Made by a program: the position numbers and the translations under genes. The notes beneath the pieces were generated by a model. It was given only the letters and a program-made list of their open reading frames with translations, searched no databases and had not been told where the DNA came from. Positions 736-28,865 of a stretch of 36,603 bases of DNA are shown piece by piece (the first letter of the stretch is position 1; each line of letters begins with the position of its first letter). Source of the stretch: an uncultured Dehalococcoidaceae bacterium (lineage in GTDB: Bacteria; Chloroflexota; Dehalococcoidia; Dehalococcoidales; RBG-16-60-22); contig CAYNDI010000001.1 in assembly GCA_964395955.1 (NCBI GenBank), positions 1 to 36,603 of the forward strand. The letters are read 5' to 3'.

Positions 736-746
736 GGAGTGCGGAA

Positions 747-1652: not shown

Positions 1653-1685
1653 AGTATAGGACCATAAGAATAATGAGAAGTGTGT

Positions 1686-2678: not shown

Positions 2679-3661
2679 ACGTTCAACAGAATAATAATCT
2701 TCTGGAAATTAGAAATTTAAAGATGTACTTTCCCATTAATAAAGGATTGTTACGTCGTAAAGTCGGTGACATCAAGGCTGTAGATGACGTGAGTTTTGCC
2801 ATCAGGAAGAACGAGACTCTAGGCCTGGTAGGAGAAAGCGGTTGCGGCAAGACGACTACCGGCCGCTGTATCTTACGGCTTTATCGGCCGACCTCGGGAA
2901 ATATCATATTTAACGGCAACGATATTTCTTCTCTAAAAGATAGACAGTTAAGACCCATCCGCTCAAATATGGGGGCTATTTTCCAGGATCCCTACGGTTC
3001 TCTCAATCCGCGTCAGACAGCGCGCACTATTGCCGGTATGCCGCTGATAATTCATGGCATGACCCGCAGTAGAAATGACTTAAATGATAATGTGGCCGAA
3101 CTTTTTAAAATCGTGGGACTGGATTCAAGTATGATGGACCGTGTCCCCCATGAATTCAGCGGTGGTCAACGCCAGCGCCTGGGAATAGCCCGAGCCCTGG
3201 CCTGTCGTCCCTCGCTGATTATCTGTGATGAGCCGATTTCAGCCCTTGATGTTTCCATTCAGGCCCAAATAATCAATCTGCTGGGGGAACTCCAGAAGAA
3301 GATGGGACTTACCTATCTCTTCATTGCCCATGACCTTTCCGTGGTACAGCATATCAGCGACCGGGTAGCGGTAATGTATCTGGGCCGGATTGTGGAAATA
3401 GCCAGCGCCAAGGAACTCTACCAGAATCCGCTCCACCCGTATACCAAAGCGCTGTTGTCAGCGGTACCGATTCCGAATCCTGTAATAGAAAGGGGCCGGG
3501 TACGTATCGTTTTAAAGGGAGAGGTCCCCAGTCCGGCCAACCCCCCGGCGGGCTGCCACTTCCACCCGCGCTGCGAGTTAGCTGTTCAGGAATGCCGTGA
3601 GGAAAGGCCCCAATTACACAAACATAGCCGCGAACACGAGGTAGCCTGCATTAGAGCCTGA
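2675..3661 (+). CDS. ABC importer ATPase, DppF/OppF-like
   Basis: Walker A is GESGCGKTT, the signature is [15 protein letters not shown] and Walker B is [12 protein letters not shown]. The C-terminus reads [17 protein letters not shown]. An ATGA stop/start overlap links it to the upstream ATPase. Confidence 0.85.
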
Positions 3662-4790: not shown

Positions 4791-6290
4791 ATGAAGGTAG
4801 TGCTGGTAAATCCCCCGCAGACCCTCCCTGCTAAAAGCGTCGGGGTACTGGAAGCAAGGATACATCCCCCGCTGAGCCTGCTTTACCTGGCGGCCGTCCT
4901 GGAGAAAAAGGGGGTTGAAATCAGCATCGTCGATGCTCTCGTAATCGGGGAAGGCGCTTTATTCCGCGAGGGTGACAGCCTGCATTTTGGCGCCCGCTGG
5001 CCGCTTTTAAAAGAAAAAATCGCCGAGCTTGAACCGGATATCGTCGGCATTACCAGTCCGTTCACCAGCCAGCTTAAGAATGCCCTGGCCGCCGCCCGCC
5101 TGGTCAGGGAAATCAACCCTGAAATCCCGGTCATTGCGGGTGGCCCCCATGCCGTCGTATCGCCCGGTGATTTTCTGGCTGAGAAGACTATCGACGTGGT
5201 GGTCATGGGCGAGGGAGAGCTGATATTACCGGAGCTTATCAGTCATTATGCCGGTTCCGGCCCAGACCTGGCCGGTATCAGGGGAATCGCTTTCCGGAAC
5301 GAAAAGGGCGAAGTCGTTGTCAACGAACGTGCCGCGCCCGTAGAAAATCTCGACGAACTCCCTTATCCCGCTTATCACCTTCTCAACATGGAAGACTACT
5401 TTCTGGTTCACGAGAAGGGCTTCAAGGGGCGCTCATATGCCAGCGTCAGCCAGACCGTGCCTGTTATTACCAGTCGGGGCTGTCCCTTCAACTGCTGCTT
5501 CTGTTCGGTGCATCTCCATATGGGACGCAAGTGGCGTCCCCACTCGCCGGAACATGTCCTGGGGCACCTCAAGCTACTCAAAGAAAAATACGGCGTGCGC
5601 CATATCGATTTTGAGGATGATTGCATTAATCTGAACGAAAAAAGGTTCGATGAAATCCTGGAGATGATGATAGGGGAGAAGCTGGGTCTGACCTGGAATA
5701 CCCCCAACGGCGTGCGCGGCGACCTTCTTAACGAGTCGCTGGTCAGCAAGATGAAAAAGTCCGGCTGTCTCCGTATCACCATCGCTCCCGAGTCCGGCGA
5801 CCAGGACACTTTAGACAACATCATCGATAAAAAGCTGGACCTACGGAAAATAGAGGCTACGGCCGGGCTGCTGCAGAAATATAAAATAGCCACGCATGCC
5901 TACTATATAGTCGGGTTCCCCGGCGAGACCCCGGCTAAGATGCAAAATACTTTCGACTTTGCCGCCAGGCTGCTGAAAAAGTACGGTGTCGTCCCCTCGG
6001 TCACCATGGCCAGCCCGCTTATCGGCACCCGCCTTTATAACGAATCCAAGAAAGCCGGCTATCTAATAAAGGAGCCCGCCCCGGAGGATATTCTGCTCGG
6101 CTCACATCCCGGCGGCGCCGGTCTGCTCCGTACATCTGAGTTCACGCCGGAAAGCGTCCGGGCGGCTATCAAGAAGTTCTACCGGCGCGTCTTTTTCATC
6201 GCCCTCGGCAAGGCGCCGACTTTAATTCTAAGAGACCCCAAAGCCGCCTTTGAAAAAACGAAAGGGCTGCTCAAGCTGGCGGCCGGTTAG
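4791..6290 (+). CDS. B12-binding-domain radical SAM protein (class B radical SAM)
   Basis: The N-terminal Rossmann-like cobalamin-binding-type domain reads MKVVLVNPP..., DIVGITSPF and IPVIAGGPHA. The radical SAM cluster motif CxxxCxxC is present in TSRGCPFNCCFCS. Length is 499 aa. Confidence 0.8.
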   Translation: MKVVLVNPPQTLPAKSVGVLEARIHPPLSLLYLAAVLEKKGVEISIVDALVIGEGALFREGDSLHFGARWPLLKEKIAELEPDIVGITSPFTSQLKNALAAARLVREINPEIPVIAGGPHAVVSPGDFLAEKTIDVVVMGEGELILPELISHYAGSGPDLAGIRGIAFRNEKGEVVVNERAAPVENLDELPYPAYHLLNMEDYFLVHEKGFKGRSYASVSQTVPVITSRGCPFNCCFCSVHLHMGRKWRPHSPEHVLGHLKLLKEKYGVRHIDFEDDCINLNEKRFDEILEMMIGEKLGLTWNTPNGVRGDLLNESLVSKMKKSGCLRITIAPESGDQDTLDNIIDKKLDLRKIEATAGLLQKYKIATHAYYIVGFPGETPAKMQNTFDFAARLLKKYGVVPSVTMASPLIGTRLYNESKKAGYLIKEPAPEDILLGSHPGGAGLLRTSEFTPESVRAAIKKFYRRVFFIALGKAPTLILRDPKAAFEKTKGLLKLAAG

Positions 6291-7482: not shown

Positions 7483-8634
7483 ATGCCGCTAATGCGTAAA
7501 AAAGAGGCTGTTTTCGTGAGGTCGAACCCTTTAGACCGGGATGTCCGCCTGCCCAAGGAGATAACGGCGATTAACCTTGCGGGCTATGGCACCCGGCACA
7601 TTTACTGGGACCGGGAAGGAAAAGCCGATGAGCCGATGGAACTGGAAAATCACCGGGCGATACCCTTCCGCCTGAGGGCTCCCTGGGGTAAATGGATTTT
7701 GTTTTATCTCCCCCTCTGGTGGGGCTTCGTTTTCTTTCGCCTGGTGACGATGCGGTTCGATATCGTTCACGTTGTTAATTTCGATAGCGTCCTTCCCTGC
7801 GTCATCGCGGCGAAACTTAAGAGGAAGCCGGTTGTTTATGAACTCCTTGACGTATACGAGGAATTGCTCCCCGCCGGACTGCGGGCGGTCGGCCTGGCGG
7901 TGGACAAGTTAATCATGCGCCTGGCTACCGCTATCATCGTCGTCGATGACGAGCAGGTAGCGGGCATCGGCGGTATCCCCCACCGTCGTATCGTCACCGT
8001 TTACGATTCTCCACCGGATTATCTCGTCAATCAGGATAGCCCTCCCGCTGATATTGAGAAGAACAAGCAGTTCACGCTGTTTTATGCCGGCCAGCTGCAT
8101 CGGGACCGACTGCTCAATCTGGACAAGGTAATCGAGGTGGTTAAAGAAATCGATGGCGTAAAGCTGGTATTAGCGGGCTACGGGGATATGGCCGCGGAAA
8201 TCGGAGAGCTGGCTGCCCGGCTGCCTGACAGGTTTGAGTTTATCGGGAAAATACCCTACGCCGAGGTAATCCGATGCGGGCTGACGGCCGACCTCTTTTT
8301 CGTCCTCAGGGACCCCGTCCTGCCGTTTTACCGCTACATCTGCGGCAGCACCCTGTTCAACGCCATGATTTGCGGCAAGCCCATCCTGGTCAATCAGGGC
8401 ACTTCGACAACGAAGAAAGTCACCGCGGAGAACTGCGGTATAGCCGTGAATTCCGGTGATGTCAACGAGATAAAGCAGGCGATTATCAAACTACGCGATG
8501 GTCCGTCGCTCTGCCGCGAGCTGGGAACCAATGCCCGGCGGGCCTACGAGCAGCGTTATAGCTGGGATATCATGGGACAGCGGCTGGTCAATCTTTACAA
8601 CGAACTGACTCAGGAGGTTAAGGGTGCCGGATAA
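7483..8634 (+). CDS. GT-B glycosyltransferase (GT4-like)
   Basis: The protein is 383 aa with a two-Rossmann-domain layout. The C-terminal domain reads FYAGQL...VKLVLAGYG...GSTLFNAMICGKPILVNQG, resembling the GT4 donor-binding region. Confidence 0.65.
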   Translation: MPLMRKKEAVFVRSNPLDRDVRLPKEITAINLAGYGTRHIYWDREGKADEPMELENHRAIPFRLRAPWGKWILFYLPLWWGFVFFRLVTMRFDIVHVVNFDSVLPCVIAAKLKRKPVVYELLDVYEELLPAGLRAVGLAVDKLIMRLATAIIVVDDEQVAGIGGIPHRRIVTVYDSPPDYLVNQDSPPADIEKNKQFTLFYAGQLHRDRLLNLDKVIEVVKEIDGVKLVLAGYGDMAAEIGELAARLPDRFEFIGKIPYAEVIRCGLTADLFFVLRDPVLPFYRYICGSTLFNAMICGKPILVNQGTSTTKKVTAENCGIAVNSGDVNEIKQAIIKLRDGPSLCRELGTNARRAYEQRYSWDIMGQRLVNLYNELTQEVKGAG

Positions 8635-9682
8635 ACTTAAAGTTGGTATTGTCGGCTGCGGCGGTGTCGTTCATCAGGAGCATATACCGAGTTTTTCGAG
8701 GCTGCAGAACGTCGTTATTCAGGCGGTATGTGACCAGAACCGGGAACTGGCCCGGCAGACTGCCGCCAAATATAGCATCCCCGGTGTCTACGCCGGGATA
8801 ACGGATATGCTCGCAAAAGAAAGGCTGGACATCGTCGATATCTGTGTGCCTCCCCAGATACACGCCCCCCTGGCTTTAGAGGCTTTGCAGGCGGGTTGCC
8901 ACGTGCTGATGGAGAAACCGATGGCCCTCAAGGTCTCCGATTGCGACGCCATGCTGGAGGCTGCTAAAGCGAAAAACAGGCAAATCTGTGTCATTCACAA
9001 CCAGCTTTTTAATCCCCCCTTCCCCCGGGCCCGGCAGCTGGTGGCTGAGGGTGCTATCGGGGAGCTGACCGGACTGAGAATACTGCTTTCCGACCACCGC
9101 GACGAGATGATAATGAAGAAGGACTACTGGATACACAAGCTTCCCGGCGGCGTTATCGGGGAGTCAGGCCCACATATCGTCTATCTCACCCTGGCCTTTC
9201 TCAACAGCGTGAAAAACGTGGATGTCAGCGCCATGAGCTTTCTGGAACACCCCTGGGCGCCCTTCGATGAGTTTCGGCTGGGACTGGAAGGCGAAAAAGC
9301 CATGAGCTCGGTGGTCATGTCATATTCCAGCACCCGCCACGACCTTCTCGTCGATATCATGGGTACCGAAGGGTACATCCACGTCGACCTTACCGCCAAG
9401 TACCTGGTCCGCTACGGCGATAAGGCGTCGATAAAGCCGTCGCGTTTCGCCCGCTATTTCCTGAGCACACGCATGCAGGAGGCGGGGGGTATCGCCGGCA
9501 ACGCGCTGGGCTACCTTACGGGCAGGCTGAAGTTCGGCCATGAGCTGCTCATTAAAAGCTTCGTCGATAGTATCCTGAACGGCGGCCGGCCCCCGGTAAC
9601 CGGCGAAGAAGGCCGGGAGGTGGTGAAGGTCATGGAAATGATTGTGGCCAGGCTGAACGAGAAGTACGGGGGCAGCCGGTGA
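8624..9682 (+). CDS. Gfo/Idh/MocA-family NAD(P)-dependent oxidoreductase
   Basis: The N-terminal Rossmann motif is KVGIVGCGGV and the EKP motif is VLMEKPMA. It has a GTG start with an AGGAGG RBS ~9 nt upstream and overlaps the previous gene by 11 nt. Confidence 0.8.
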   Translation: MPDKLKVGIVGCGGVVHQEHIPSFSRLQNVVIQAVCDQNRELARQTAAKYSIPGVYAGITDMLAKERLDIVDICVPPQIHAPLALEALQAGCHVLMEKPMALKVSDCDAMLEAAKAKNRQICVIHNQLFNPPFPRARQLVAEGAIGELTGLRILLSDHRDEMIMKKDYWIHKLPGGVIGESGPHIVYLTLAFLNSVKNVDVSAMSFLEHPWAPFDEFRLGLEGEKAMSSVVMSYSSTRHDLLVDIMGTEGYIHVDLTAKYLVRYGDKASIKPSRFARYFLSTRMQEAGGIAGNALGYLTGRLKFGHELLIKSFVDSILNGGRPPVTGEEGREVVKVMEMIVARLNEKYGGSR

Positions 9683-9697: not shown

Positions 9698-10438
9698 GTG
9701 CCGATGCAGGAAATTAAGAAGGCCGTTGTCCTCGCCGCCGGACTCGGCAGCCGGTTGAAACCGCTGACCGATACCGCCCCCAAGTGTCTCACCGAGGTCA
9801 ACGGAAAGGTATTGCTGGAGCATACTCTCGGCATACTCGAAAACAACGGCATCGATGAGGCGGTAATCGTCGTCGGCTACCTGGGGGACATCATCGTCGA
9901 TAAAATCGGGCCTGGATTCGGTAAAATGAAAGTCGCCTATCTCTGGAATAAAATCTACGAAAAAACGAACTCCATGTACTCCGCCTGGCTGGCCAGGGAG
10001 TACCTTGAGCAGGGGGCTATGCTCATCGAGGGAGACACCATCTTCGAGGAGTCCCTTCTACGGGGCGTACTCGGTGAGTACCCGGGCCGGGCCTGCTGGG
10101 TCGGCGACAGGTTCACGCCGGTGCATGACGGCTCAATGTCCACGACAGATAGCGAGAATAGAATCGTCGAATTGAGAATCGTCAGGGAGAAGCTCAGGGA
10201 GTACCGGAGCAATTACTTTAAATCTACCGGTGTGCTTAAAATCACGTCGGAATACGGTCGGGCGCTATCACGGTGGCTCGATGAAGACGTCCGCCGGGGC
10301 AATGTCAGGATATATTTTGATATTGTCATCGCCGGGCACCTGGCGGATGCCCCGATATTTATTCACGATTTCACCGGGGGGAAATGGATCGAGATTGACG
10401 ATATCGGAGACCTGAGGAGGGCGGAGCAGCTGTTTTAA
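9698..10438 (+). CDS. LicC-like nucleotidyltransferase (phospho-alcohol or sugar-1-phosphate cytidylyl/nucleotidyl-transferase)
   Basis: AVVLAAGLGSRLKPLTDTAPKCLTEVNGKVLLEHTL resembles the LicC / 2-aminoethylphosphonate cytidylyltransferase / NTP_transf_3 N-terminus. Length is ~245 aa. An alternative ATG start lies at 9704. Confidence 0.65.
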   Translation: MPMQEIKKAVVLAAGLGSRLKPLTDTAPKCLTEVNGKVLLEHTLGILENNGIDEAVIVVGYLGDIIVDKIGPGFGKMKVAYLWNKIYEKTNSMYSAWLAREYLEQGAMLIEGDTIFEESLLRGVLGEYPGRACWVGDRFTPVHDGSMSTTDSENRIVELRIVREKLREYRSNYFKSTGVLKITSEYGRALSRWLDEDVRRGNVRIYFDIVIAGHLADAPIFIHDFTGGKWIEIDDIGDLRRAEQLF

Positions 10439-10457: not shown

Positions 10458-11174
10458 ATGGGTCTATTAAAATACTACTGGAAAGCGGTTCACTGCCTGG
10501 GCTATTTCGACCGGCATAATAAAGGCGCCTGGCGGCCTGATACCGAGCACAAGGTGAAAATCGATTACAAAACGGTAGTCAGTGAGTCCGACAGAAAACA
10601 GTGTCTCCACTTTGGTCCCGAAGACGCCGCTAAAGAAGAAGCCGCTTTATCGCCGTATATCGATATCAACCCGCAGTCAAGGGTGCTCGACCTCGGCTGC
10701 GGGGACGGCCGGTGGGGGAAGATACTGGCCCCCCGCTGCAGGGAATATGTGGGCGTGGACTTCTCTAAAAAGCTGCTGGAAAAAGCCCGCCGTAACGTCC
10801 CTGATGCCAATGCCGGGTTTATCTGTCATCCGGCCCAGGAGTATTATGCTGACGAACACTTTGATTTAATTCTCATCATCGGCCTGCTGACCTACCTCAA
10901 CGACGAGGATATTATTAAACTGGCCGGTAACTGCCGCAAGATGCTCGCCGGAGGCGGCCGGCTTATCGTCAGGAACGTCTCGCTGGGGGACAACTCCTGC
11001 CGCCGGCAGGTGTACGATTACCGGCCGGGCGCCTGGCTGGGGTGGCTGGGAGACCCCGGTTATCAGGTGATAAGACGCAACCGGGAGGAGGAGCTGTCTT
11101 TCTTTAAGGACTTCCGCCTCGTTAACGACCAGTCGATAGCCGGCACCGCCTACAGATTTTATATCTTCGAGTGA
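10458..11174 (+). CDS. Class I SAM-dependent methyltransferase
   Basis: Motif I is RVLDLGCGDGRWG and the acidic post-I residue is in YVGVDFS. Length is 238 aa. Confidence 0.75.
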   Translation: MGLLKYYWKAVHCLGYFDRHNKGAWRPDTEHKVKIDYKTVVSESDRKQCLHFGPEDAAKEEAALSPYIDINPQSRVLDLGCGDGRWGKILAPRCREYVGVDFSKKLLEKARRNVPDANAGFICHPAQEYYADEHFDLILIIGLLTYLNDEDIIKLAGNCRKMLAGGGRLIVRNVSLGDNSCRRQVYDYRPGAWLGWLGDPGYQVIRRNREEELSFFKDFRLVNDQSIAGTAYRFYIFE

Positions 11175-11180
11175 GGTATT

Positions 11181-11873
11181 GTGAGTAAAGAGAAAGTCGT
11201 CGGTATCCTTGGAGGTATGGGTCCCCTGGCCACGGTGGAGTTTTTCCGTCAGGTGGTTTCATCTACTGCGGCCAGGAAAGACTGGGAGCATTTGAGGATT
11301 ATTATTGATAATAATACCAAAATTCCGAGTCGGACCCGGGCTGTCCTGTACCGGGAAGACAGCCCGGTGCCGATGATGATAGCCAGTATTAATATGCTGG
11401 CCGATGCCGGGGCGGACTTTGTGGTTGTGCCCTGCAATTCCGCCCACTATTTCTTTGATGATGTGACCCCGCATATCCGGATTCCCTGGTTGAATATGAT
11501 TGATATCACTTCTCGTACATTTTCAAGTAAGTTGCAGCGGCCGCTTGTCCTGGGGGGTTATATCACTGTCGAAAAAAGGCTTTACAGTCGGAATCTGCCC
11601 GGGGCGGTATATCCCGCCGGGCCCTGGAACACTTTCGTGACCGAGGTTATTGAAGAGATTAAACTTACGGCCAGGTTGCGTCCGCAGATGAAAAACATGT
11701 TTATGGAAATGATCGAACATTATCGTCATGAGATAGATTCGGTATTACTGGCCTGCACCGAGCTTCCCCTGGTATACAGGAGTAAAAGCCTGCACGGTAT
11801 TCCGGTCGTTGATTCCGGTCTGGAATACGCCCGTGAAGCCGTCAGGTACGCCCGTGGCAGCGCCAGTCATTAA
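11181..11873 (+). CDS. Asp/Glu/hydantoin-racemase-family protein (aspartate-racemase-like)
   Basis: The sequence contains GILGGMGPLAT and two catalytic-Cys motifs, VVPCNSAHYF and LLACTELPL. It has a GTG start and is 230 aa. Confidence 0.75.
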   Translation: MSKEKVVGILGGMGPLATVEFFRQVVSSTAARKDWEHLRIIIDNNTKIPSRTRAVLYREDSPVPMMIASINMLADAGADFVVVPCNSAHYFFDDVTPHIRIPWLNMIDITSRTFSSKLQRPLVLGGYITVEKRLYSRNLPGAVYPAGPWNTFVTEVIEEIKLTARLRPQMKNMFMEMIEHYRHEIDSVLLACTELPLVYRSKSLHGIPVVDSGLEYAREAVRYARGSASH

Positions 11874-11885: not shown

Positions 11886-12869
11886 ATGCCGTTCAAACAG
11901 ATAGCCAGCCCCGCCCCAGAATATCTGGCGGCCACGGATATCTTTATCGGCGATATGTCGGATACCAATTACGAGTTCCTGCTCTTCGACCGTCCGGTTA
12001 TCCTGCTGGCCAACCGATGGCTGCGGGAAAATTTCCCCGATATCGGCATTAAAACGGATTTAGCCGGCCTGGAATCGTCCATCGGGAGAAGCATCGAAAA
12101 TCCCGCCGAGTTTCACGAGTCACGGGTGCTGTGGCTCAACAAGACGATTTATCAGCCGGATGGCCGGAGTTCCGGGCGGTGCCTCGATATCATGATGGAG
12201 AGGGTAAAAATCGACAATCCTAGATTTGTCTTCATCCACGGCGGCGATGCCGTCAGGAAGACCAACCTGGCACCCATATATACGGAGGCCCGCCGGAGGG
12301 GGCTGGATGCCAGTTTTGTGGTATCGCAGCGGAAGTCGAGAGGGCGGAACGATACCATTTATGTAGCAGCCCATGTCGCCGACCTTAATATCGACGGAGG
12401 GTACAAGGTACACTTCGACCACGGCCTGAAAGGCCAGGGCACGGCTAACGTGGCCACGGCTATCGAGTATTACCGGGAGAACGATTATTTTCCTCTGAAT
12501 GACCTGCATATCACCGCCGGGGAGGTCGGCCAGGCGAGGACCGAGATGCTGCTGGGTCCCCGGCGTGATAGAGCCGTCATCGGCGGCTACCCCAAGGCTG
12601 ATGACCTGCTCCGGCTCAATACTGAGGAGAATAAGAAGAGTGTTTTTAGAGAACTGGGCTTTGAGACAGGCAGACCGATGCTGACCTACGCTTCCGCCGG
12701 CTCGCAGAGCCAAGACAAGCCCGGCGGCTCGCTGAGTGACGAGGTTATCGAGTTATTGAAAGATATCGCGTCCCGCCGGGGCTATAATATCCTTATCAAG
12801 CTGAAGTACCCGAAAGGTATTATCGTCCTCCAGGCGTTGAATAAACTCCGCAGGATGCTGGCGATATAG
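11886..12869 (+). CDS. TagB/TagF-like (Glyphos_transf-like) phosphotransferase with motif order suggesting circular permutation
   Basis: The family's normally C-terminal motifs (ATDIFIGDMSDTNYEFLLFDRPVILLA ... PDGRSSGRCLD) occupy residues ~15-100. The normally N-terminal and middle motifs follow: HFDHGLKGQG (WHG-like), GGYPKADDL, MLTYASAG (YAPTWR-like) and ILIKLKYP (K.HP-like). Confidence 0.5.
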   Translation: MPFKQIASPAPEYLAATDIFIGDMSDTNYEFLLFDRPVILLANRWLRENFPDIGIKTDLAGLESSIGRSIENPAEFHESRVLWLNKTIYQPDGRSSGRCLDIMMERVKIDNPRFVFIHGGDAVRKTNLAPIYTEARRRGLDASFVVSQRKSRGRNDTIYVAAHVADLNIDGGYKVHFDHGLKGQGTANVATAIEYYRENDYFPLNDLHITAGEVGQARTEMLLGPRRDRAVIGGYPKADDLLRLNTEENKKSVFRELGFETGRPMLTYASAGSQSQDKPGGSLSDEVIELLKDIASRRGYNILIKLKYPKGIIVLQALNKLRRMLAI

Positions 12870-12881: not shown

Positions 12882-13970
12882 ATGAGTAAAAAACCGGATG
12901 AAATAAAAGTCGCTCTGGTAGGCATTTATCCGCCGCCCTACGGCGGCGTCTCCATCCATGTGCACCGGTTGCATGCCCTCTGCATGGATAACAATATCCG
13001 GTGTACGGTCTGGGATATCAGCCGCCACGTCAAGAAAATCCAGAATATCGTCAATATGAGCCGACCCTGGAACTGGCCGCGCGTCCTCGCTTCCCGGCAG
13101 GACATTATTCACGTCCATACCACGGGTATGCACTGGATTATTCCGGCGCTATTCTATTATCTGGCCAGAATTACGGGTGCTGAATACGTGGTTTCTTACC
13201 ATAGCCTCAGGTTCGGTCCGCGGGATTTTAATCCACTAGGACGCAGGGTACTGAAGACCATCCTGTCGTCGGCGGCGTGCTGCATCGCTACGAACACAGA
13301 AATAATGGAGAAGCTCATTACTCTCGGCGCGGTAGCGGAAAGAGTCAACGTGGTACCGTCTTTCCTGCCGCCGGTAAAAAAAGAATCGGAGATTGCGGCA
13401 ATACCCCGGGAAGTCAGTGACTTCATGGACGGACATAAGCCGGTAATATCGGCGAGTGCCTTCAGAGTCATCATTTATGAGGGTATTGACCGCTATGGTA
13501 TTGACATGTGCCTGGAGGTGTGCGCTGAACTGCAGAAGTTATATCCTCGTATCGGCCTGGTATTTTGCCTGCCGGACACAGGCGATGGTAGGTATTTCCG
13601 GGAGATGAAACGCCGGATTGCCGAAAAAGGAATAGCGGATAGCTTTTTATTTCATACCGCGCCCGGGCAGTTCTATCCCTTGCTCATGAAAAGCGATATC
13701 CTGGTGAGACCCACCAACACGGACAGCTACGGAATATCGGTGGCCGAAGCCCTGTATTTCGGGGTGCCGGCCATTGCCAGCGATGTCTGTCCGAGACCCA
13801 CCGGCACGGTGCTATTTAAGAACCGTGATGTTAAGGACTTTATCGACCGTGTTAAAATGGTCTGGGATAATTATGGTCATTATAAGTCGGAACTGGAGTC
13901 TCTGGAAGTGACCAGCGGACTGGACGGGATACTGGAAATATACCGTAGTATTACCGGGGAAGGAAGATGA
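12882..13970 (+). CDS. GT-B glycosyltransferase, family GT4-like
   Basis: The N-terminus is [19 protein letters not shown] and the C-terminal E-x7-E-like region is [27 protein letters not shown]. Length is 362 aa. Confidence 0.75.
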
Positions 13971-18662: not shown

Positions 18663-20465
18663 TTAGCATTGTACCACTTCCCGCCACACCTCTTCATTAA
18701 CCGGCGAAAAAAAGTGACTAATATCCCCGCCGGGTGCCGCCGCGGGATAACCGGTTTCGTTCAGGACAGTGATTGCTACGTCTCTCATGTCATTTTCATA
18801 GCAACTCTTTACACTTATCTCATCCATTTCTGCTATAGAATCGAGGCCGATGTTGTTTTCCGAACGGTACCTGACGACCGGTACGCCGGTCAGGAACATT
18901 TCCAGGACCATGGTCGATGAATAGCAGATGACCAGGTCGATTTCATGCAACATTTCCGGGATGTTTTGTTTCGTTTCTTTAAAATGGGCGGGCCAGGGAG
19001 GCAGCTTTATTCCCAGACGTTCGGGATTTATTGCCGGGTGGTACTTGATGAGCACCTGGATGGTGTTCATATCCGCAAAGGCATTGAGAGTAGCCAGCAG
19101 CATTTCCCCGGTAAGTCCGACCAGGTACGGCAGCGCCACCAGGATAGTCTTTGGCCGTTTCGTTACTTTTTGAGGGCGGTTTCCTGTGGTATGGTGGAGG
19201 TACTCGTATCTCAAAGCTCCGCCGTTGACCAGTTTCGTCGCGCCGAAACCGGCTTTCTCTAATTTTCCCAGCGTACTGTCGCTGTCGGTAACGATGCAGT
19301 CGGGCAGCGGCATGTGGTCGGATTCCCCGGCGCCGGCGAAGTAGTTCAAAAGGAACGAGGGCACCGTGGAATGCTGGTAGGCGATGAGCCTGACATTCTT
19401 GCCCGATTCCGCAGCGGCCAGGCAGAGCATTTTTTCCGATGGCTGGTTTTCAAAAGGATAGATAATAGTGATTTTTTCACTATCTATTTCTTTCAGCCAT
19501 CTTTTATAGGCGTAATAATAGGCGAGGTGGTTATGGAAAAATATTTCCTGCAGTGCCTGTCTCCTGAGTAGAGTCTTCAAGTGTCCCGTCTCTTTCCCGA
19601 TAAAGATGCTGAAGAAGGCAAAGAAACTCTTTAAAATATCCCGCAGGTGGAGGTAGTTGTCCAGGAAGGTAAATTCAAACCCGCCGTGCGCCAGGCATTT
19701 CTTTTTTAAGTTCTCCCGCATAAACATGGGCGTGATATAGGTAATTTTCAACGCGTTTTCCGCCAGGATAGCCGGCAAACGCCCGAAATACCCATCGTGA
19801 AACTCCCCGTCGGCGGTGAAAAACCTCTCCTGTACCCAGGAATAGATATATACCCGTCTATCGTTTTTCCCGGCTTGAGAGATGATTCGTTTGTTCCGAC
19901 TGCCGAACAATGCCGCGTTCAGGTAATGCTTAAAGGCTCTCTGGAGGAAGTACAGCCGGTAGGCGATGAACCGGGCTGACAGCTTGATGGCCTCCGGCCA
20001 CAGCCATTTACGGCTTTTAAAACGAAGTCCGGGTTTGCCTTTCTCGTAACACTCCCGGAGGTGCCGGTAAAGCCAGCGGTCCGTTACGAAAACAACCAGT
20101 AATTTTTCTCCGTTACGCGTTTCGGTGCATAGCTTTTCGAAGAGGTCGGCGTAACACCAGAGCTGGAAAAAATCGCTGGTCAGCGGATTGCGGTAGGCGG
20201 TATCCGAGGCCCACCAGTAGCGTTGGTTCTTTTGCTCCCGCCCCAGCCCGGCCAGGAAATCCAGGAAGGGCTGTTTCTGCTTCTCGGCTGTCTCCTCCAG
20301 CAAATCGCCCAGGAGCCGTCGGTTTTCTGCTCCCATTAAAACCGAGATACTCTCTCTCTGGGCGGTATCCTTTCCCAAATATAGCCAGGTAAAGTCCCTG
20401 CCGGCGGTGGCCTGCTCTGCCTTACCCGCGTCATCCGGATGGAAAACGATGACCTCGTCCTGCAT
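18663..20465 (-). CDS. Large (600-aa) uncharacterised protein; the C-terminal third resembles TagF / capsule-polymerase (KpsC/KpsS-type) GT-B-like transferases
   Basis: The ORF is long and clean, in an operon context. Its C-terminus carries KTILVALPY..., IQVLIKYHPA and IDLVICYSSTMVLEMFLTGVPVV, which match the K.HP and TDYSS..E...P-like motifs. I recognise nothing in the N-terminal ~400 aa. The CDS call is firm; the function is tentative. Confidence 0.5.
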   Translation of the reverse strand: MQDEVIVFHPDDAGKAEQATAGRDFTWLYLGKDTAQRESISVLMGAENRRLLGDLLEETAEKQKQPFLDFLAGLGREQKNQRYWWASDTAYRNPLTSDFFQLWCYADLFEKLCTETRNGEKLLVVFVTDRWLYRHLRECYEKGKPGLRFKSRKWLWPEAIKLSARFIAYRLYFLQRAFKHYLNAALFGSRNKRIISQAGKNDRRVYIYSWVQERFFTADGEFHDGYFGRLPAILAENALKITYITPMFMRENLKKKCLAHGGFEFTFLDNYLHLRDILKSFFAFFSIFIGKETGHLKTLLRRQALQEIFFHNHLAYYYAYKRWLKEIDSEKITIIYPFENQPSEKMLCLAAAESGKNVRLIAYQHSTVPSFLLNYFAGAGESDHMPLPDCIVTDSDSTLGKLEKAGFGATKLVNGGALRYEYLHHTTGNRPQKVTKRPKTILVALPYLVGLTGEMLLATLNAFADMNTIQVLIKYHPAINPERLGIKLPPWPAHFKETKQNIPEMLHEIDLVICYSSTMVLEMFLTGVPVVRYRSENNIGLDSIAEMDEISVKSCYENDMRDVAITVLNETGYPAAAPGGDISHFFSPVNEEVWREVVQC

Positions 20466-20481: not shown

Positions 20482-21261
20482 CTAGCGGTCTTTATCGATG
20501 AAATCTTTCAGCTCGGTCGTGGCTTCCCGGCACCTGGCGTTGAGCATGATGGCGTCCGTGCTGTAGGCGATGAAGGTGAAGCCTTCTTTGGCCCTGTCTT
20601 TAACGTCCGAGGGAACCGGCGGGACGACATGAATGCCGGCGGCTTTTCCGGCGGCTCTGGTGGCGGCGAGTACTTTTTCTCGTGCCTGCTTCACCAGCGG
20701 GTGGTCCAGTTCTCCGGTGACGCCCAGTGAGCCGGAAATATCGTACGGCCCTATCATCACCCCATCGATGCCGGGGACGGCGATGATATCGGCGATGTTC
20801 TCTACGGCCTGTTTGTGCTCAATCTGCACGATTACCAGGCTTTCCTTGTTTACCGTGTCCTTGTATTCATCGAACTTTTCGCCCCATGCCTGAGCGCGGT
20901 AAAGCCCCACGCTCCTGTCGCCTTCGGGCGGGTACTTCACCGAGCGGACGGCTTTCTCGGCTTCCTCGGGGGTATTCACCATAGGCACGATAACACCGTA
21001 TGAACCGGCATCCATTACTCTCTTGGCCAGCGTCGGGTCGTTGCTCGTTAACCTTACCAGCGGCACGCGGCCGGAAGCCTCTATGGCCCGTACCAGCGAT
21101 TCGACGTCCTGAATGCCGATGACGCTGTGCTCCATGTCGATAGCCAGCCAGTCGAACCCGCTTTCCGCCATTATCTCGGCGATAGCGCCGTGCGAGAGGG
21201 TAATCCAGCTCCCCAGCGAGACTTTCCCGTTGCTGAGTTTTTGCTTTACTTTATTTTTCAT
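20482..21261 (-). CDS. HpcH/HpaI-family (class II, divalent-metal) pyruvate aldolase
   Basis: GSWITLSHGAIAEIMAESGFDWLAIDMEHS, VRLTSNDPTLAKRVMDAGSYGVIVPMVNTPEEA, KYPPEGDRS and VQIEHKQAVENIADIIAVPGIDGVMIGPYDIS follow the HpaI/YfaU/GarL pattern. Confidence 0.8.
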   Translation of the reverse strand: MKNKVKQKLSNGKVSLGSWITLSHGAIAEIMAESGFDWLAIDMEHSVIGIQDVESLVRAIEASGRVPLVRLTSNDPTLAKRVMDAGSYGVIVPMVNTPEEAEKAVRSVKYPPEGDRSVGLYRAQAWGEKFDEYKDTVNKESLVIVQIEHKQAVENIADIIAVPGIDGVMIGPYDISGSLGVTGELDHPLVKQAREKVLAATRAAGKAAGIHVVPPVPSDVKDRAKEGFTFIAYSTDAIMLNARCREATTELKDFIDKDR

Positions 21262-21276
21262 CTTCCCCCACCTGTC

Positions 21277-22041
21277 TTAACCCGTCGGTACGGGTAATTT
21301 ATTATTAGTGGCGCACACGTTGTAGACGCTTTCCCTGTCCGTTTTATCGATTGTGTAATTACCCCCCGCCCCCGCCACGATGGCCAGGCCGGCGGCGACG
21401 TCCCACAGCCGGATACCGGTCTCAAGGTAGGCGTCCCCCCGCCCGGCGGCAACGTAGGCTAAAGATAGTGCCGCCGAACCTATCCACCTCAGCTTTAGGA
21501 AGGCGCGTATCTGTTCGACCATTCTTTTCACGGCCTCCGGAGAGAAGTCGGCGTTCGGCGGAAAACCGGAAAACAGTATCGCTTTCTCGATTGTGTCCGT
21601 ATTGGAAACGTTAATTGCGCTGCCGTTGAGCCAGGCGCCGCTCCCGGTGATGCCCGTGAAAAGCTCGTTCCGGTTGAAATCGTAGATGGCGCCCAGCAGC
21701 GGTTCTTCCCCTCTGCAGAGAGCGATGGACACGCAGTTAACCGGTATCCCCTTGATGAAATTGATGGTGCCGTCGAGGGGGTCGACAACCCACTGCAAAT
21801 CGCTTTCCCCACTGCCTTTTATCACGCCTTTTTCCTCGGAAAGTATGGTGATAGCCGTTTTCTCCCGGAGAAAATCTATGATGATGTTTTCCGACTCTTT
21901 ATCGGCGGATATTTTTATATCCTTGCCCTCGCTGGAGTCGATTCTGACCTCGTCTTTGTTAAGGCTGGCCAGGTATTTCCCGGCCGTTACAGCGGCGTCC
22001 CCGGCGATTTGCAAATACTTGTCCAGCGTCTTTTTATCCAT
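21277..22041 (-). CDS. Inositol-monophosphatase-family (IMPase/SuhB-like) phosphatase
   Basis: The signature motifs are ILSEE, WVVDPLDGTINFIKG and LWDVAAG. Length is 254 aa. Confidence 0.8.
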   Translation of the reverse strand: MDKKTLDKYLQIAGDAAVTAGKYLASLNKDEVRIDSSEGKDIKISADKESENIIIDFLREKTAITILSEEKGVIKGSGESDLQWVVDPLDGTINFIKGIPVNCVSIALCRGEEPLLGAIYDFNRNELFTGITGSGAWLNGSAINVSNTDTIEKAILFSGFPPNADFSPEAVKRMVEQIRAFLKLRWIGSAALSLAYVAAGRGDAYLETGIRLWDVAAGLAIVAGAGGNYTIDKTDRESVYNVCATNNKLPVPTG

Positions 22042-22042
22042 A

Positions 22043-22960: not shown

Positions 22961-22972
22961 TTTTCTTGTCCG

Positions 22973-23941: not shown

Positions 23942-23970
23942 CTTGCTCCGTATCGCGTTATTATCGCCGG

Positions 23971-24585: not shown

Positions 24586-24617
24586 CTTCGGCTACCTCCT
24601 TGAAGATAACTATGTTT

Positions 24618-28861: not shown

Positions 28862-28865
28862 CGGT

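What the first reader, a model, noticed from the sequence alone, without database searches (positions are those of the whole stretch)
11886..12869. TagF/TagB-like phosphotransferase with circularly permuted motif order
**Established knowledge.** In the CDP-glycerol glycerophosphotransferase family the motif order runs N-domain with WHG..K, then G.PR.D, YAPTWR, K.HP, and finally (I/L)TDYSS...E..L...P(I/V)I with a closing DG.as.R.

**What the sequence shows.** In this single 327-aa ORF the normally terminal segment comes first (ATDIFIGDMSDTNYEFLLFDRPVILLA ... QPDGRSSGRCLD, residues ~15-100). It is followed by FVFIHGGD..., HFDHGLKGQG, GGYPKADDL, MLTYASAG and ILIKLKYP. The protein then stops 17 residues later. 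The upstream racemase and downstream GT4 genes look complete, so no missing halves lie next door.

**Inference.** This is either a genuine circular permutation or a non-functional chimera. A permutation could arise by tandem duplication followed by trimming at both ends. It is plausible for a GT-B fold, whose termini lie close together.
Basis: partly seen in the sequence, partly recalled or inferred. Interest (0 to 1): 0.6.

Follow-up and report, generated by a model that had tools for sequence, protein, structure and literature searches.

The report
Circularly permuted TagF-like phosphotransferase family
This gene encodes a real, conserved enzyme with the fold of the teichoic-acid (TagF-type) phosphotransferases, but the last third of the chain has been moved to the front and one "invariant" catalytic histidine is replaced by lysine; it most likely attaches a phosphate- or phosphonate-linked decoration to a cell-surface sugar polymer.

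Summary
The ORF (11886-12869 +, 327 aa) and its unusual motif order are real. Pfam PF04464 matches above threshold, but in wrapped order. Moving residues 1-110 (Pfam test) or 1-107 (family-profile tests) to the C-terminus restores a single collinear match to Pfam, to Cps3D and TarL, and to 52 of 66 canonical-order relatives.

It is not a chimera or misassembly. At least 120 full-length collinear homologs (48-100% identity) occur in MAGs labelled as six phyla. dN/dS is about 0.14 in both segments, and AlphaFold2 gives a confident single-chain model (pLDDT 92) whose best structural match is TagF.

The chain break lies in the C-terminal Rossmann subdomain, between the helix after the strand carrying the second catalytic residue and the next strand. 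The CMP pocket is therefore built from both chain ends. The second "invariant" TagF-family histidine (TarL H433) is an invariant lysine (K307) here.

In 15 of 19 loci the gene sits beside a nucleotidyltransferase. In four it lies directly downstream of PEP mutase, a decarboxylase and an Fe-ADH, which suggests CMP-phosphonate donors.

Verdict: genuine circular permutation, and a new variant of a known enzyme kind. The donor substrate in this window is unresolved.

The parts
11886..12869 (+). Gene for the circularly permuted TagF-like (PF04464) phosphotransferase, 327 aa
   Evidence: ORF; PF04464 27.7 bits, above the 22.1 cutoff; >=120 full-length homologs; AF2 pLDDT 92.4, pTM 0.88; TagF is the best fold match.
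11886..12206 (+). Segment B (residues 1-107). It is homologous to the C-terminal ~100 residues of canonical TagF-like enzymes: strands 3-6 of the C-terminal Rossmann subdomain plus the closing helices that return to the N-subdomain. It carries Y13, D18, D23, S25, E30, P37, N43, W45, and R80..W83..P91-D92-G93 (the canonical 'DG..s.R' ending).
   Evidence: In canonical relatives, profile ~3-107 maps to the protein's C-terminal end. Cps3D 638-664 and TarL 463-492 align to profile 13-43. Residue conservation is shared with canonical relatives. Model secondary structure: E3-7, E19-22, E38-41, E55-57, H62-71, H77-87, H95-107.
11934..11960 (+). Motif T17-D-I-F-I-G-D23-M-S25, the counterpart of the canonical (L/I)TDYSS donor-site motif
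   Evidence: D18 is D in 66/66, D23 in 61/66 and S25 in 63/66 canonical relatives. It aligns with TarL 'ITDLLISDYSS'.
12207..12221 (+). Junction where the ancestral C- and N-termini are fused (residues ~108-112, KIDNP)
   Evidence: Canonical relatives end a median 9 residues after profile position 104. Where aligned end to end, their residue ~14-16 corresponds to family position 124-127, so their residue 1 is at about position 110-113.
12207..12866 (+). Segment A (residues 108-327). It comprises the N-terminal Rossmann-like subdomain (about 113-232), then the inter-domain GYPKAD motif and the first beta-alpha-beta-alpha of the C-terminal subdomain (about 233-327). It is collinear with the start of canonical enzymes.
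   Evidence: Profile 108-325 maps to the N-terminal part of canonical relatives. The segment-A-only model superposes on TagF 3l7j at TMq 0.58, rmsd 6.9 A, and other top hits are GT-B proteins.
12411..12434 (+). H176-F-D-H179-G-L-K-G183. Both histidines are invariant. H179-G180 is the counterpart of the canonical 'HG' catalytic-base histidine (TagF H444, TarL H300).
   Evidence: H176 and H179 are invariant in 46/46 members. H179 aligns with His in 10 of the 12 canonical relatives that align here. The role of the His is taken from PMC10901376.
12582..12602 (+). G233-G-Y-P-K-A-D239, the counterpart of the canonical G(Y/W)P(K/R)xD motif at the start of the C-terminal subdomain
   Evidence: G234 matches 63/66, P236 54/66, K237 (K or R) 62/66 and D239 60/66 canonical relatives. 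It aligns with Cps3D 'TGYPRID' and TarL 'TGVPRTD'.
12684..12701 (+). T267-Y-A-S-A-G272, the counterpart of canonical YAPT(W/F)R (first strand of the C-subdomain). Position 270 is Pro in 38 of the 46 aligned family members and corresponds to TarL P395, next to the cytosine pocket.
   Evidence: Y268 matches 52/66, A269 50/66 and position 270 is P in 59/66 canonical relatives. TarL residue numbering was counted; the role of P395 is from PMC10901376.
12798..12806 (+). K305-L-K307, the counterpart of canonical K-x-H. Invariant K307 occupies the position of the second 'invariant' catalytic His (TarL H433, the leaving-group protonation residue).
   Evidence: K307 is K in 46/46 family members versus H in 51/66 canonical relatives; most of the remainder have a His one or two columns away. 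It aligns directly to TarL H433. The role of the His is from PMC10901376.
12822..12866 (+). New C-terminal helix (residues 313-327, IVLQALNKLRRMLAI). It is homologous to the helix that connects strands 2 and 3 of the C-subdomain in canonical enzymes. It is amphipathic, basic and modelled with low confidence.
   Evidence: Model H313-326, pLDDT 54-58. muH 0.57, net charge +4. Canonical relatives run continuously from profile ~316-326 into profile ~3-17.
9698..10438 (+). Nucleotidyltransferase (NTP_transf_3 / NTP_transferase), the probable maker of the nucleotide-activated donor
   Evidence: Pfam. Homologs, alone or fused to an ApgM-like domain, lie co-directionally near the permuted gene in 9 loci.
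8624..9682 (+). Gfo/Idh/MocA oxidoreductase immediately upstream of the nucleotidyltransferase, part of the recurring cassette
   Evidence: Pfam. Gfo-type or ADH-Gfo fusion genes recur in most related loci.
10458..11174 (+). SAM-dependent methyltransferase, a recurring neighbour
   Evidence: Pfam. Homologs next to the permuted gene in L002, L010, L013, L016, L021 and L022.
11181..11873 (+). Asp/Glu-type amino-acid racemase (best NCBIfam match cysteate racemase CuyB, 173 bits, cutoff 190), immediately upstream
   Evidence: The same racemase-then-permuted-gene adjacency occurs in L010, L013 and L021.
12882..13970 (+). GT4 glycosyltransferase immediately downstream (12-nt gap), a conserved partner in the closest relatives
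   Evidence: Pfam. Orthologs lie 15-16 nt downstream in L001/L007, L005 and L022.
4791..6290 (+). B12-binding radical SAM enzyme. Its closest NCBIfam model is the 'Sden_1168 family P-methyltransferase' (236 bits, below the 575 cutoff). It may tailor the donor.
   Evidence: B12-rSAM genes lie directly beside the permuted gene in L002, L006 and L020, and at the syntenic position in L022.

Best explanation
The gene encodes a functional, naturally circularly permuted member of the TagF-like (PF04464, GT-B fold) phosphotransferases.

Architecture. Relative to canonical enzymes (order A-B), the chain order is B-A. Segment B (residues 1-107) provides strands 3-6 of the C-terminal Rossmann subdomain and the closing helices. 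Segment A (108-327) provides the whole N-terminal subdomain plus the first two strands of the C-terminal subdomain. The ancestral termini are fused with almost no linker at about residue 110. The new termini open in the loop between the helix after strand 2 (which carries the second catalytic residue) and edge strand 3. The CMP-binding subdomain is therefore assembled from both ends of the polypeptide.

Catalysis (inferred). It is expected to follow the TagF/TarL scheme. H179 deprotonates an acceptor hydroxyl, which attacks the beta-phosphorus of a cytidylyl-activated donor, and CMP leaves. The leaving-group histidine of canonical enzymes is replaced by invariant K307.

Role (inferred). The protein lacks the extra N-terminal domain of polymerases, so it probably adds a single phospho-linked substituent to a glycan built by the surrounding GT4/GT2 cluster. 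The donor is made by the co-transcribed nucleotidyltransferase, oxidoreductase, methyltransferase and racemase genes. In a subset of relatives the donor is probably CMP-2-hydroxyethylphosphonate.

Shown versus inferred. Permutation, conservation, purifying selection, fold, the His-to-Lys change and gene association are shown. Chemistry, donor identity, acceptor and the duplication-and-trimming origin are inferred.
For: Wrapped profile matches: Pfam and the family profile against solved Cps3D and TarL.

Exhaustive profile search: full-length single-stretch hits form a discrete clade (E<=1e-46). Canonical relatives come after a score gap, and in virtually all where two or more stretches were detected the order is [profile 108-325][profile 3-107].

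Rotation test on 66 canonical relatives: 65/66 need >=2 stretches with the native profile, while 52/66 align in one stretch with the rotated profile. Mean best-stretch score rises from 44.9 to 66.5 bits and longest stretch from 111 to 214 residues. 51 of the 52 bridge the new termini. The rotated alignment gives a single collinear stretch to Cps3D 541-665 and TarL 352-492.

Real gene: >=120 full-length homologs; MAGs labelled as six phyla; dN/dS 0.14-0.23, similar in both segments; tight operon spacing.

Fold: AF2 pLDDT 92.4, pTM 0.88. TagF and TarL are the best structural matches. Segment A alone reaches TMq 0.58, rmsd 6.9 A on TagF, with GT-B proteins dominating the hit list.

Catalytic residues: K307 aligns with TarL H433 and H179 with the canonical HG histidine; donor motifs are conserved, with residue roles from PMC10901376.

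Context: a nucleotidyltransferase lies co-directionally within <=4.2 kb in 15 of 19 loci. PEP mutase (402 bits, above its equivalog cutoff) plus a TPP decarboxylase and an Fe-ADH lie immediately upstream in 4 loci.
Against: The intramolecular assembly of the C-subdomain from both termini rests on a confident AF2 model and on homology.

Foldseek E-values to TagF are only about 1e-3.

The N-subdomain aligns weakly to solved structures, so the H179 assignment rests on 12 alignable relatives.

The second catalytic His, shown to be essential in TagF, TagB and TarL, is absent, so the mechanism may differ or activity may be altered.

The new C-terminal helix is modelled with low confidence.

No biochemical data exist for any member. 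The donor in this window is unidentified: there is no PEP mutase in the 36.6-kb window. L001/L007 has no nearby nucleotidyltransferase.
Confidence: 0.82

Rival explanations
1. Assembly artefact or recent non-functional chimera: two pieces of a TagF-like gene were joined in the wrong order by misassembly or rearrangement, leaving a pseudogene-like ORF.
For: The motif order is unusual. Pfam similarity is weak (27.7 bits). The window is a metagenome-type contig, and read coverage could not be checked.
Against: The same order and length are found in >=120 clusters from independent assemblies and sources (JGI, ENA, NCBI, Logan), including contigs of 0.1-1.1 Mb. Met1 and the C-terminus are conserved. 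dN/dS is about 0.14 in both segments. The AF2 model is confident.
Confidence: 0.01
2. Not a permutation: an unrelated or only distantly related Rossmann-type protein that shares a few short nucleotide-binding motifs with TagF-like enzymes by convergence, so the 'wrapped' matches are coincidental local hits.
For: The individual Pfam stretches are short (30-45 residues) and weak (12-18 bits each). Rossmann-like beta-alpha-beta units match each other promiscuously; for example, profile 108-183 aligns to unrelated Rossmann domains that follow TagF modules in P0152, P0165 and P0216.
Against: With the family profile, both segments match canonical relatives over ~100 and up to ~200 residues (E down to 1e-23 per stretch). 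After rotation, near end-to-end single alignments appear, for example P0230 residues 16-323 of 330 and P0159 residues 14-298 of 313. Many family-specific residues are shared. TagF is the top structural hit.
Confidence: 0.03
3. The permuted chain does not fold as a self-contained GT-B monomer. Instead, segment B of one subunit completes the C-terminal subdomain of another (an obligate domain-swapped dimer or oligomer).
For: The new termini lie inside a beta-sheet, a geometry that favours swapping. The C-terminal helix has low pLDDT. TagF-like enzymes are oligomeric (TarL is a tetramer, PMC10901376). Only a monomer was modelled.
Against: The monomer model has pTM 0.88, with pLDDT above 90 for both terminal segments. 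The fused old termini need only ~5 linker residues, as expected for an intramolecular GT-B.
Confidence: 0.08
4. The fold is a permuted TagF-like one, but the function is not glycan decoration. The enzyme could act on a small molecule or lipid, or hydrolyse or rearrange the CMP-activated intermediate (for example, a step in phosphonate natural-product biosynthesis), with the His-to-Lys change reflecting different chemistry.
For: The essential second His is missing. Neighbours include B12 radical-SAM enzymes closest to P-methyltransferases and ApgM/PhpG-like domains known from phosphinothricin biosynthesis. In fosfomycin biosynthesis, CMP-HEP is an intermediate and is not transferred to glycan (own knowledge; PMC8158854 is listed).
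Against: Every locus examined is a polysaccharide cluster, with GT4, GT2, epimerases/dehydratases, flippase-type Polysacc_synt_3, Bac_transf and ABC2 transporter genes. A GT4 gene is translationally adjacent in the window and its closest relatives. The acceptor-side catalytic His and the donor motifs are retained.
Confidence: 0.1

Closest known systems
TagF / TarL / TarF / TagB wall-teichoic-acid polyol-phosphate transferases (Pfam PF04464; structures 3L7I-3L7M, 8VA1)
   Same: Same GT-B fold by best structural match. Same donor-site motifs: G(Y/W)P(K/R)xD, YAP, (T/S)D..(S/G)D.S...E and the closing DG..s.R. An invariant HG histidine sits in the N-subdomain. Genomic association with cytidylyl-/nucleotidyl-transferases.
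   Different: The chain order is circularly permuted (B-A instead of A-B). The second invariant catalytic His (TarL H433) is an invariant Lys. There is no N-terminal polymerase domain and no obvious inserted membrane-binding helices. The protein is much shorter (327 aa vs 562-721 aa). It is found in uncultured Chloroflexota, Bacteroidota, Planctomycetota and others, not in Firmicute wall-teichoic-acid loci.
TagF-like capsule polymerases of Gram-negative pathogens (e.g. Cps3D, 8QOY; PMC5974469, PMC11666461)
   Same: Best sequence match among solved structures (E 2e-5 native, 2e-6 rotated). These are also TagF-like modules that work on non-teichoic surface glycans.
   Different: Cps3D is a 1149-aa multi-domain polymerase with canonical order and a canonical His region. 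The protein here is a stand-alone permuted module.
Short (~300-400 aa) canonical-order PF04464 relatives from metagenomes (e.g. P0157, P0159, P0230)
   Same: Closest sequence relatives outside the clade (whole-protein E about 1e-22 to 1e-11). They have similar size and the same minimal architecture, sit in glycan clusters with NTP transferases, and align nearly end to end after rotation.
   Different: Canonical order and a retained second His (51/66). They are themselves uncharacterised.
LicD-type phosphotransferases (phosphocholine / proposed CMP-aminoethylphosphonate transfer to glycans; PMC6697681)
   Same: Proposed analogous role: moving a phospho- or phosphono-substituent from a CMP/CDP-activated donor onto a surface glycan, encoded next to PEP mutase and cytidylyltransferase genes.
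   Different: An unrelated fold and family. No LicD Pfam match here: PF04464 was the only hit.
Other architectural variants of Rossmann-type transferases: split GT-B Alg13/Alg14, and circularly permuted DNA methyltransferases (own knowledge, not tested here)
   Same: They show that two-lobed Rossmann enzymes tolerate breaks or reordering of the chain while keeping the active site.
   Different: Alg13/14 is a split between the two lobes, not a permutation. The break here is inside the nucleotide-binding lobe. I found no report of a naturally permuted GT-B or TagF-like enzyme in the searchable literature.

Membership tests
TagF-like CDP-polyol phosphotransferases (Pfam PF04464 Glyphos_transf) | Scores above the Pfam gathering threshold for PF04464 | tested here: met
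   27.7 bits vs the 22.1 cutoff, E 1.7e-6. Most homologs carry a precomputed PF04464 hit.
TagF-like CDP-polyol phosphotransferases (Pfam PF04464 Glyphos_transf) | GT-B fold: two Rossmann-like subdomains around a cleft | tested here: met
   This applies to a predicted structure only. The AF2 model (pLDDT 92.4) best matches TagF and TarL. Segment A alone reaches TMq 0.58 on TagF and otherwise hits GT-B proteins.
TagF-like CDP-polyol phosphotransferases (Pfam PF04464 Glyphos_transf) | Canonical collinear order: N-subdomain, then GxPRxD, YAPTxR, KxH(P), TDYSS...E...P, and the closing DG..s.R | tested here: not met
   The order is wrapped in Pfam, PDB and relative comparisons, and becomes collinear only after rotation.
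TagF-like CDP-polyol phosphotransferases (Pfam PF04464 Glyphos_transf) | First invariant His (catalytic base; TagF H444 / TarL H300) in the N-subdomain | tested here: inconclusive
   H179 (and H176) are invariant in 46/46 members. H179-G aligns with His-Gly in 10 of the 12 canonical relatives alignable there. The N-subdomain alignment to solved TarL is not significant.
TagF-like CDP-polyol phosphotransferases (Pfam PF04464 Glyphos_transf) | Second invariant His (leaving-group protonation; TarL H433) on the loop after strand 2 of the C-subdomain | tested here: not met
   The position is Lys (K307) in 46/46 family members versus His in 51/66 canonical relatives. It aligns directly to TarL H433. 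The essential role of the His is stated in PMC10901376.
TagF-like CDP-polyol phosphotransferases (Pfam PF04464 Glyphos_transf) | CMP-pocket motifs: YAP proline (TarL P395), (T/S)D..SD.S, and the conserved acidic residue of the following helix | tested here: met
   Y268, A269, position 270 (Pro in 38/46; Ser in the window protein), D18, D23, S25, E30 and P37 are shared with canonical relatives and aligned to TarL and Cps3D.
TagF-like CDP-polyol phosphotransferases (Pfam PF04464 Glyphos_transf) | Uses a CDP-activated polyol-phosphate donor and releases CMP | not testable with these tools
   Only indirect support: nucleotidyl-/cytidylyl-transferase genes lie next to the gene in 15/19 loci.
TagF-like CDP-polyol phosphotransferases (Pfam PF04464 Glyphos_transf) | Monotopic membrane association through amphipathic helices | tested here: inconclusive
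   No transmembrane segment is evident. The C-terminal helix 313-327 is amphipathic and basic (muH 0.57, +4), but so is an ordinary surface helix of a Rossmann fold.
TagF-like polymerases (TagF, TarL, TarK, Cps3D) as opposed to single-addition primases (TagB, TarB, TarF) | Additional domain N-terminal to the GT-B module | tested here: not met
   The 327 residues are fully accounted for by the GT-B module. The criterion comes from PMC10901376. A single-addition role is therefore more likely.
Natural circular permutation (operational definition) | Both segments are homologous to the reference family, in swapped order; a rotated sequence aligns collinearly across the new termini; the old termini abut; the arrangement is conserved in orthologs | tested here: met
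   (51 of 52 single-stretch relatives bridge the new termini; the old termini map to about residues 105-113); for conservation.
LicD family phosphotransferases | Sequence match to the LicD family | tested here: not met
   The Pfam scan at E<=10 returned only PF04464.

The most novel reading that the evidence does not exclude
This clade may be a previously unrecognised class of glycan phosphonyl/phosphoryl transferases. In this reading, a circularly permuted TagF-type enzyme, with a Lys in place of the leaving-group His, installs unusual P-linked groups on surface polysaccharides of uncultured bacteria. These would be 2-hydroxyethylphosphonate from CMP-HEP in the PEP-mutase loci, and an as yet unknown group tailored by B12-radical-SAM, methyltransferase and racemase enzymes in loci like this window. 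It would then be the missing transferase for part of the 'phosphonoglycan' biosynthetic capacity, and the first natural circular permutation of a GT-B enzyme.
Probability: 0.3. Interest if true: 0.8.

Novelty: new variant of a known kind. Interest (0 to 1): 0.62.

Why it matters
- **Protein architecture.** GT-B enzymes are among the most abundant transferases. A natural, cross-phylum circular permutation whose new termini lie inside the nucleotide-binding sheet shows that the fold tolerates this break. It also gives protein engineers a ready-made permuted scaffold.
- **Mechanism.** The systematic His-to-Lys replacement at a residue shown to be essential in TagF, TagB and TarL tests the proposed leaving-group protonation mechanism.
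- **Annotation.** These proteins are currently labelled 'hypothetical' or score only faintly against PF04464, because collinear profile methods see only one half at a time.
- **Phosphonate biology.** The tight linkage to cytidylyltransferase-PEP mutase cassettes points to a candidate for the unknown enzyme that attaches phosphonates to glycans, a recognised gap in phosphonate biology.

Tried and rejected
1. A single-sequence phmmer search against PDB gave only chance beta-galactosidase hits. A family profile was needed.
2. NCBIfam gave no usable family (TarL, 11 bits).
3. Model coordinates are not exposed to scripts, so no CE-CP or TM-align -cp could be run. I substituted the rotated-profile tests and a model of segment A alone.
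4. Search for an evolutionary intermediate. P0241 reads B-A-B but looks like a 5'-truncated two-module protein. P0139, P0135 and P0128 break near the junction but are truncated or frameshifted fragments, not split genes. Long single stretches crossing the old junction in P0152, P0165 and P0216 are generic Rossmann matches to a different downstream domain. The duplication-and-trimming origin is therefore unproven.
5. The idea that His-to-Lys predates the permutation was rejected. The few canonical relatives that appeared to lack His in that column mostly have a His one or two columns away.
6. A phosphonate donor for this particular window was rejected. There is no PEP mutase, Ppd or Fe-ADH homolog in the 36.6-kb window.
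7. The C-terminal helix as a membrane anchor could not be settled.
8. Literature searches for a permuted GT-B or TagF enzyme, and for TagF-like enzymes in phosphonate tailoring, found nothing relevant.
Full report
**1. The observation**

It is packed tightly into a co-directional gene string. The racemase stop codon is 12 nt upstream, with an AAGGGA Shine-Dalgarno-like motif before the ATG, and the GT4 start codon is 12 nt downstream. Both neighbours are complete by Pfam coverage, so no missing half lies next door.

Pfam assigns the protein to PF04464 (Glyphos_transf) above the curated threshold (27.7 vs 22.1 bits, E 1.7e-6), but in two stretches. Scanning the halves separately shows that residues 13-43 match profile positions 264-294, and residues ~226-269 match profile positions 156-198. 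When the first 110 residues are moved to the C-terminus, the match becomes one collinear stretch (profile 157-293, 29.2 bits). At this level the scores are weak.

**2. Not an artefact: a conserved family**

A search of 5.8 billion proteins returned 182 hits. At least 120 of them are full-length and collinear, 48-100% identical and about 325-350 aa long, from JGI, ENA, NCBI and Logan assemblies, including contigs up to 1.1 Mb.

A 46-member alignment shares Met1 and a C-terminus shortly after 'KLKYP'. Its invariant residues lie in the TagF-like motifs: Y13, D18, D23, P37, N43, W45, H176, H179, D239, Y268, K305 and K307.

A scan of one genome per species found the gene in MAGs labelled:
- Dehalococcoidaceae (90% and 74% identity, so the window is probably Chloroflexota), Chloroflexia and Anaerolineales;
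- Elusimicrobia;
- Candidatus Peribacteria;
- Rikenellaceae, Mariniphaga and Cyclobacteriaceae;
- Actinomycetota;
- Pirellulales.

Against four orthologs, dN/dS is 0.14-0.23 and is essentially the same in the two segments. Misassembly or a decaying chimera is therefore excluded.

**3. The permutation, tested at profile level**

The family profile matches the solved TagF-like enzymes in wrapped order:

| Solved enzyme | First segment | Second segment |
|---|---|---|
| Cps3D | chain 541-609 to profile 234-305 | chain 638-664 to profile 13-39 |
| TarL | chain 352-400 to profile 229-276 | chain 463-492 to profile 14-43 |

An exhaustive HMMER search of 1.84 billion cluster representatives gave 1097 hits. 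Full-length single-stretch matches (P0121-P0127, P0134, P0144 and fragments; E<=1e-46) form a discrete clade. After a score gap come canonical-order relatives. In virtually all of these where two or more stretches were detected, the order along the protein is [profile ~108-325] followed by [profile ~3-107].

I then rotated the family alignment at residue 107/108 and compared native and rotated profiles on 66 canonical relatives of 290-500 aa:

| Measure | Native profile | Rotated profile |
|---|---|---|
| Relatives aligned in a single stretch | 1 of 66 | 52 of 66 |
| Mean best-stretch score | 44.9 bits | 66.5 bits |
| Mean longest aligned stretch | 111 residues | 214 residues |

Of the 52 single-stretch relatives, 51 run straight across the family's termini. 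The best alignments are nearly end to end, for example P0230 residues 16-323 of 330 and P0159 residues 14-298 of 313. Canonical proteins end a median 9 residues after family position 104 and begin at about family position 110-113. The ancestral termini are therefore fused with essentially no linker. A rotated 14-sequence alignment also matches Cps3D (541-665) and TarL (352-492) in one stretch each, with better E-values.

**4. Structure**

AlphaFold2 with the family alignment gives a confident single-chain model (mean pLDDT 92.4, pTM 0.88). Only the last ~17 residues are uncertain.

The order of secondary-structure elements fits a GT-B fold read from a different starting point:
- Four strand-helix units (E3-7, E19-22, E38-41, E55-57) and three helices come first.
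- The N-subdomain follows, starting at E113-117.
- Then come the GYPKAD linker, E265-269, a helix, E301-306 and a final helix.

Foldseek's best PDB matches are TagF (3l7m/j/i/k, probability 0.87-1.00) and TarL. TMq is only 0.41 and rmsd about 20 A, as expected for a sequential aligner faced with a permuted chain.

No permutation-aware aligner or coordinates were available, so I modelled segment A alone (residues 108-327; pLDDT 86). Its match to TagF 3l7j improves to TMq 0.58, rmsd 6.9 A and 16% identity. The rest of the hit list becomes GT-B proteins (MshA, UDP-GlcNAc 2-epimerases, CapG, SenB, glycogen synthase). This supports chain order, not fold, as the cause of the poor full-length superposition.

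By homology with TarL, the cytidine pocket is lined by elements from strands beta18-beta21 (PMC10901376). In this family, beta18 and beta19 are at the C-terminus and beta20 and beta21 at the N-terminus. The chain break is in the loop between the helix after beta19 and the edge strand beta20.

**5. Catalytic residues**

The TarL paper states that two invariant histidines are essential in TagB, TagF and TarL. One is the catalytic base in the N-subdomain (TagF H444, TarL H300). The other sits on the loop after beta19 and protonates the CMP leaving group (TarL H433).

- **Second His replaced.** Aligning canonical relatives to the rotated profile shows K307 as Lys in 46/46 family members and His in 51/66 canonical relatives. 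Most apparent exceptions have a His one or two columns away. Counting along the TarL row of the rotated alignment puts TarL P395 on the family's YAP proline column and TarL H433 on K307. The second 'invariant' histidine is therefore replaced by an invariant lysine throughout the permuted clade, including its most divergent member P0144 ('VVIKIKSY').
- **First His probably retained.** H179 (with H176) is invariant and aligns with the canonical His-Gly in 10 of the 12 relatives that align there. The N-subdomain is too divergent for a significant alignment to solved structures.
- **Other motifs conserved.** G(Y/W)P(K/R)xD, YAP, D18, D23, S25, E30, P37 and the closing R..W...PDG..s.R are shared.

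**6. Function from context**

The window and all related loci are surface-polysaccharide clusters with GT4, GT2, epimerases/dehydratases, flippase- or ABC-type exporters and Bac_transf.

Across 19 distinct loci, a tblastn survey shows a nucleotidyltransferase gene co-directional and within <=4.2 kb in 15:

| Class | Donor-pathway genes | Loci |
|---|---|---|
| I | LicC/AglF-like NTP transferase, alone | window, L022, L006, L016 |
| I | Same transferase fused to an ApgM-like phosphomutase domain | L002, L020, L010, L015, L021 |
| II | CTP-transferase-PEP mutase fusion, TPP-dependent decarboxylase and Fe-ADH, immediately upstream | L011, L012, L014, L023 |
| III | TagD-like cytidylyltransferase | L003, L013 |

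- **Class I.** A Gfo/Idh/MocA-type oxidoreductase usually precedes the transferase. It is followed by a B12 radical-SAM enzyme and/or a methyltransferase with or without an Asp/Glu-type racemase.
- **Class II.** The PEP mutase scores 402 bits on TIGR02320, above its equivalog cutoff. The Fe-ADH's best match is the phosphonate-associated Phn_Fe-ADH (PsrA), but at 224.5 bits it is below that model's 423.7 cutoff. From established knowledge of fosfomycin and phosphonate pathways, this set makes 2-hydroxyethylphosphonate and its CMP conjugate.
- **Remaining loci.** These mostly have the gene at a contig edge.

The B12-rSAM enzymes are closest to 'P-methyltransferase' families, but far below the cutoff. 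The window's racemase is closest to cysteate racemase (173 vs 190 bits).

The window has no PEP mutase, Ppd or Fe-ADH. Its donor is therefore probably a phosphate ester of unknown structure, made by the Gfo, NTP-transferase, methyltransferase and racemase genes directly upstream. Papers on phosphonate tailoring propose LicD-like transferases and do not mention TagF-like ones.

The protein lacks the extra N-terminal domain that marks TagF-like polymerases. A single-addition decorating role is therefore more likely than polymerisation. This is an inference.

**7. Origin**

Permutation by duplication followed by trimming is plausible. Proteins with two tandem TagF-like modules exist (P0206, P0217, P0222, P0231, P0201). 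The ancestral termini abut in the permuted protein. No clean B-A-B or A-B-A-B intermediate close to this clade was found, and the candidates turned out to be truncated ORFs or generic Rossmann matches. The discrete score gap and uniform architecture suggest a single origin followed by spread across phyla. That spread may involve horizontal transfer within glycan clusters, which is an inference.

**8. Comparison with what is known, and novelty**

The protein works like, and is homologous to, TagF-like phosphotransferases. Two family-defining features were tested and not met: the collinear motif order and the second invariant His.

Public records call these proteins 'hypothetical' or generic 'CDP-glycerol glycerophosphotransferase family'. 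NCBIfam has no model for them. Literature searches found no report of a circularly permuted GT-B or TagF-like enzyme. To my own knowledge none is established, but absence from the searchable library is not proof.

I classify it as a new variant of a known kind. Interest is moderate to high, for three reasons: a natural permutation that splits the nucleotide-binding lobe, a clade-wide catalytic His-to-Lys swap, and a candidate link to glycan phosphonylation.

**9. Caveats**

- All structural statements rest on predictions and homology.
- Foldseek E-values are modest.
- Intramolecular assembly versus domain swapping is not resolved.
- Taxon labels are those of MAG bins.
- No member has been studied experimentally, and the donor and acceptor in this window are unknown.

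Noticed in passing
L023:4400-9032; also L011:6416-10987, L012:2833-7421, L014:6463-10936: In four loci (three MAGs labelled as different orders, plus one unbinned metagenome contig) the permuted gene lies directly downstream of three genes: a CTP-transferase-PEP mutase fusion, a TPP decarboxylase and an Fe-ADH. Together these are a complete route to CMP-2-hydroxyethylphosphonate. This suggests a phosphonate-transferring subgroup of the family.
   Followed up: partly
L020:4638-7989; L002:9005-12331; L021:4622-6559; L010; L015: A recurring ~645-aa fusion joins a sugar-phosphate-type nucleotidyltransferase to an ApgM-like (cofactor-independent phosphoglycerate mutase / 'proposed homoserine kinase' / PhpG-like) domain. 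It is often followed by a B12 radical-SAM enzyme closest to P-methyltransferase families. The product is unknown.
   Followed up: partly
window 4791-6290 (+): This is a 499-aa B12-binding radical SAM enzyme. Its best NCBIfam match is the Sden_1168 'P-methyltransferase' family (236 bits, cutoff 575), with PhpK also matching. It sits at the head of the same gene string and is 92% identical to its counterpart in the syntenic locus L022.
   Followed up: partly
window 11181-11873 (+): The racemase upstream scores 173 bits on the cysteate racemase CuyB model (cutoff 190). Racemase-plus-methyltransferase pairs recur next to the permuted gene in L010, L013 and L021. This hints at an amino-acid-like (acidic) moiety in the donor.
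   Followed up: no
L009:844-1824 and L011:10001-10987 (same Anaerolineales contig CAZLNX010000019.1): There are two paralogous copies of the permuted gene about 27 kb apart on one contig (53% and 51% identical to the query). Only one of them is next to the PEP-mutase cassette.
   Followed up: no
window 18663-20465 (-) and 26661-27761 (-): Two sizeable ORFs inside the glycan cluster (600 aa and 366 aa) have no Pfam match at the E-value thresholds used (E<=1e-4 and E<=1e-5).
   Followed up: no
window 20482-29651 (-): A second co-directional block encodes an HpcH/HpaI aldolase, an inositol-monophosphatase-family protein, a D-2-hydroxyacid dehydrogenase, a SIS-domain protein, a Gfo/Idh/MocA oxidoreductase, four methyltransferases and a CTP_transf_3 cytidylyltransferase (CMP-sugar synthetase type). 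It looks like a pathway for an unusual CMP-activated acidic sugar.
   Followed up: no
window 19-3661 (+): Four genes of an Opp/Dpp-type oligopeptide ABC transporter (two permeases, two ATPases) precede the polysaccharide cluster. They are unrelated to the finding.
   Followed up: no
proteins P0155 (2415 aa), P0164 (2099 aa), P0181 (3222 aa), P0152 (1444 aa): These are giant multi-domain proteins with two or three canonical TagF-like modules interspersed with GT2, GT4 and methyltransferase-like regions. Shorter tandem TagF-TagF proteins also exist (P0206, P0217, P0222, P0231, P0201). Both are possible raw material for permutation by duplication.
   Followed up: partly
L002, L004, L012-L017, L020, L021, L023: A ~707-aa fusion of a zinc-type alcohol dehydrogenase domain with a Gfo/Idh/MocA oxidoreductase recurs in 11 of the 19 loci, whichever donor pathway is present. 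It may act on the acceptor sugar and not on the donor.
   Followed up: no
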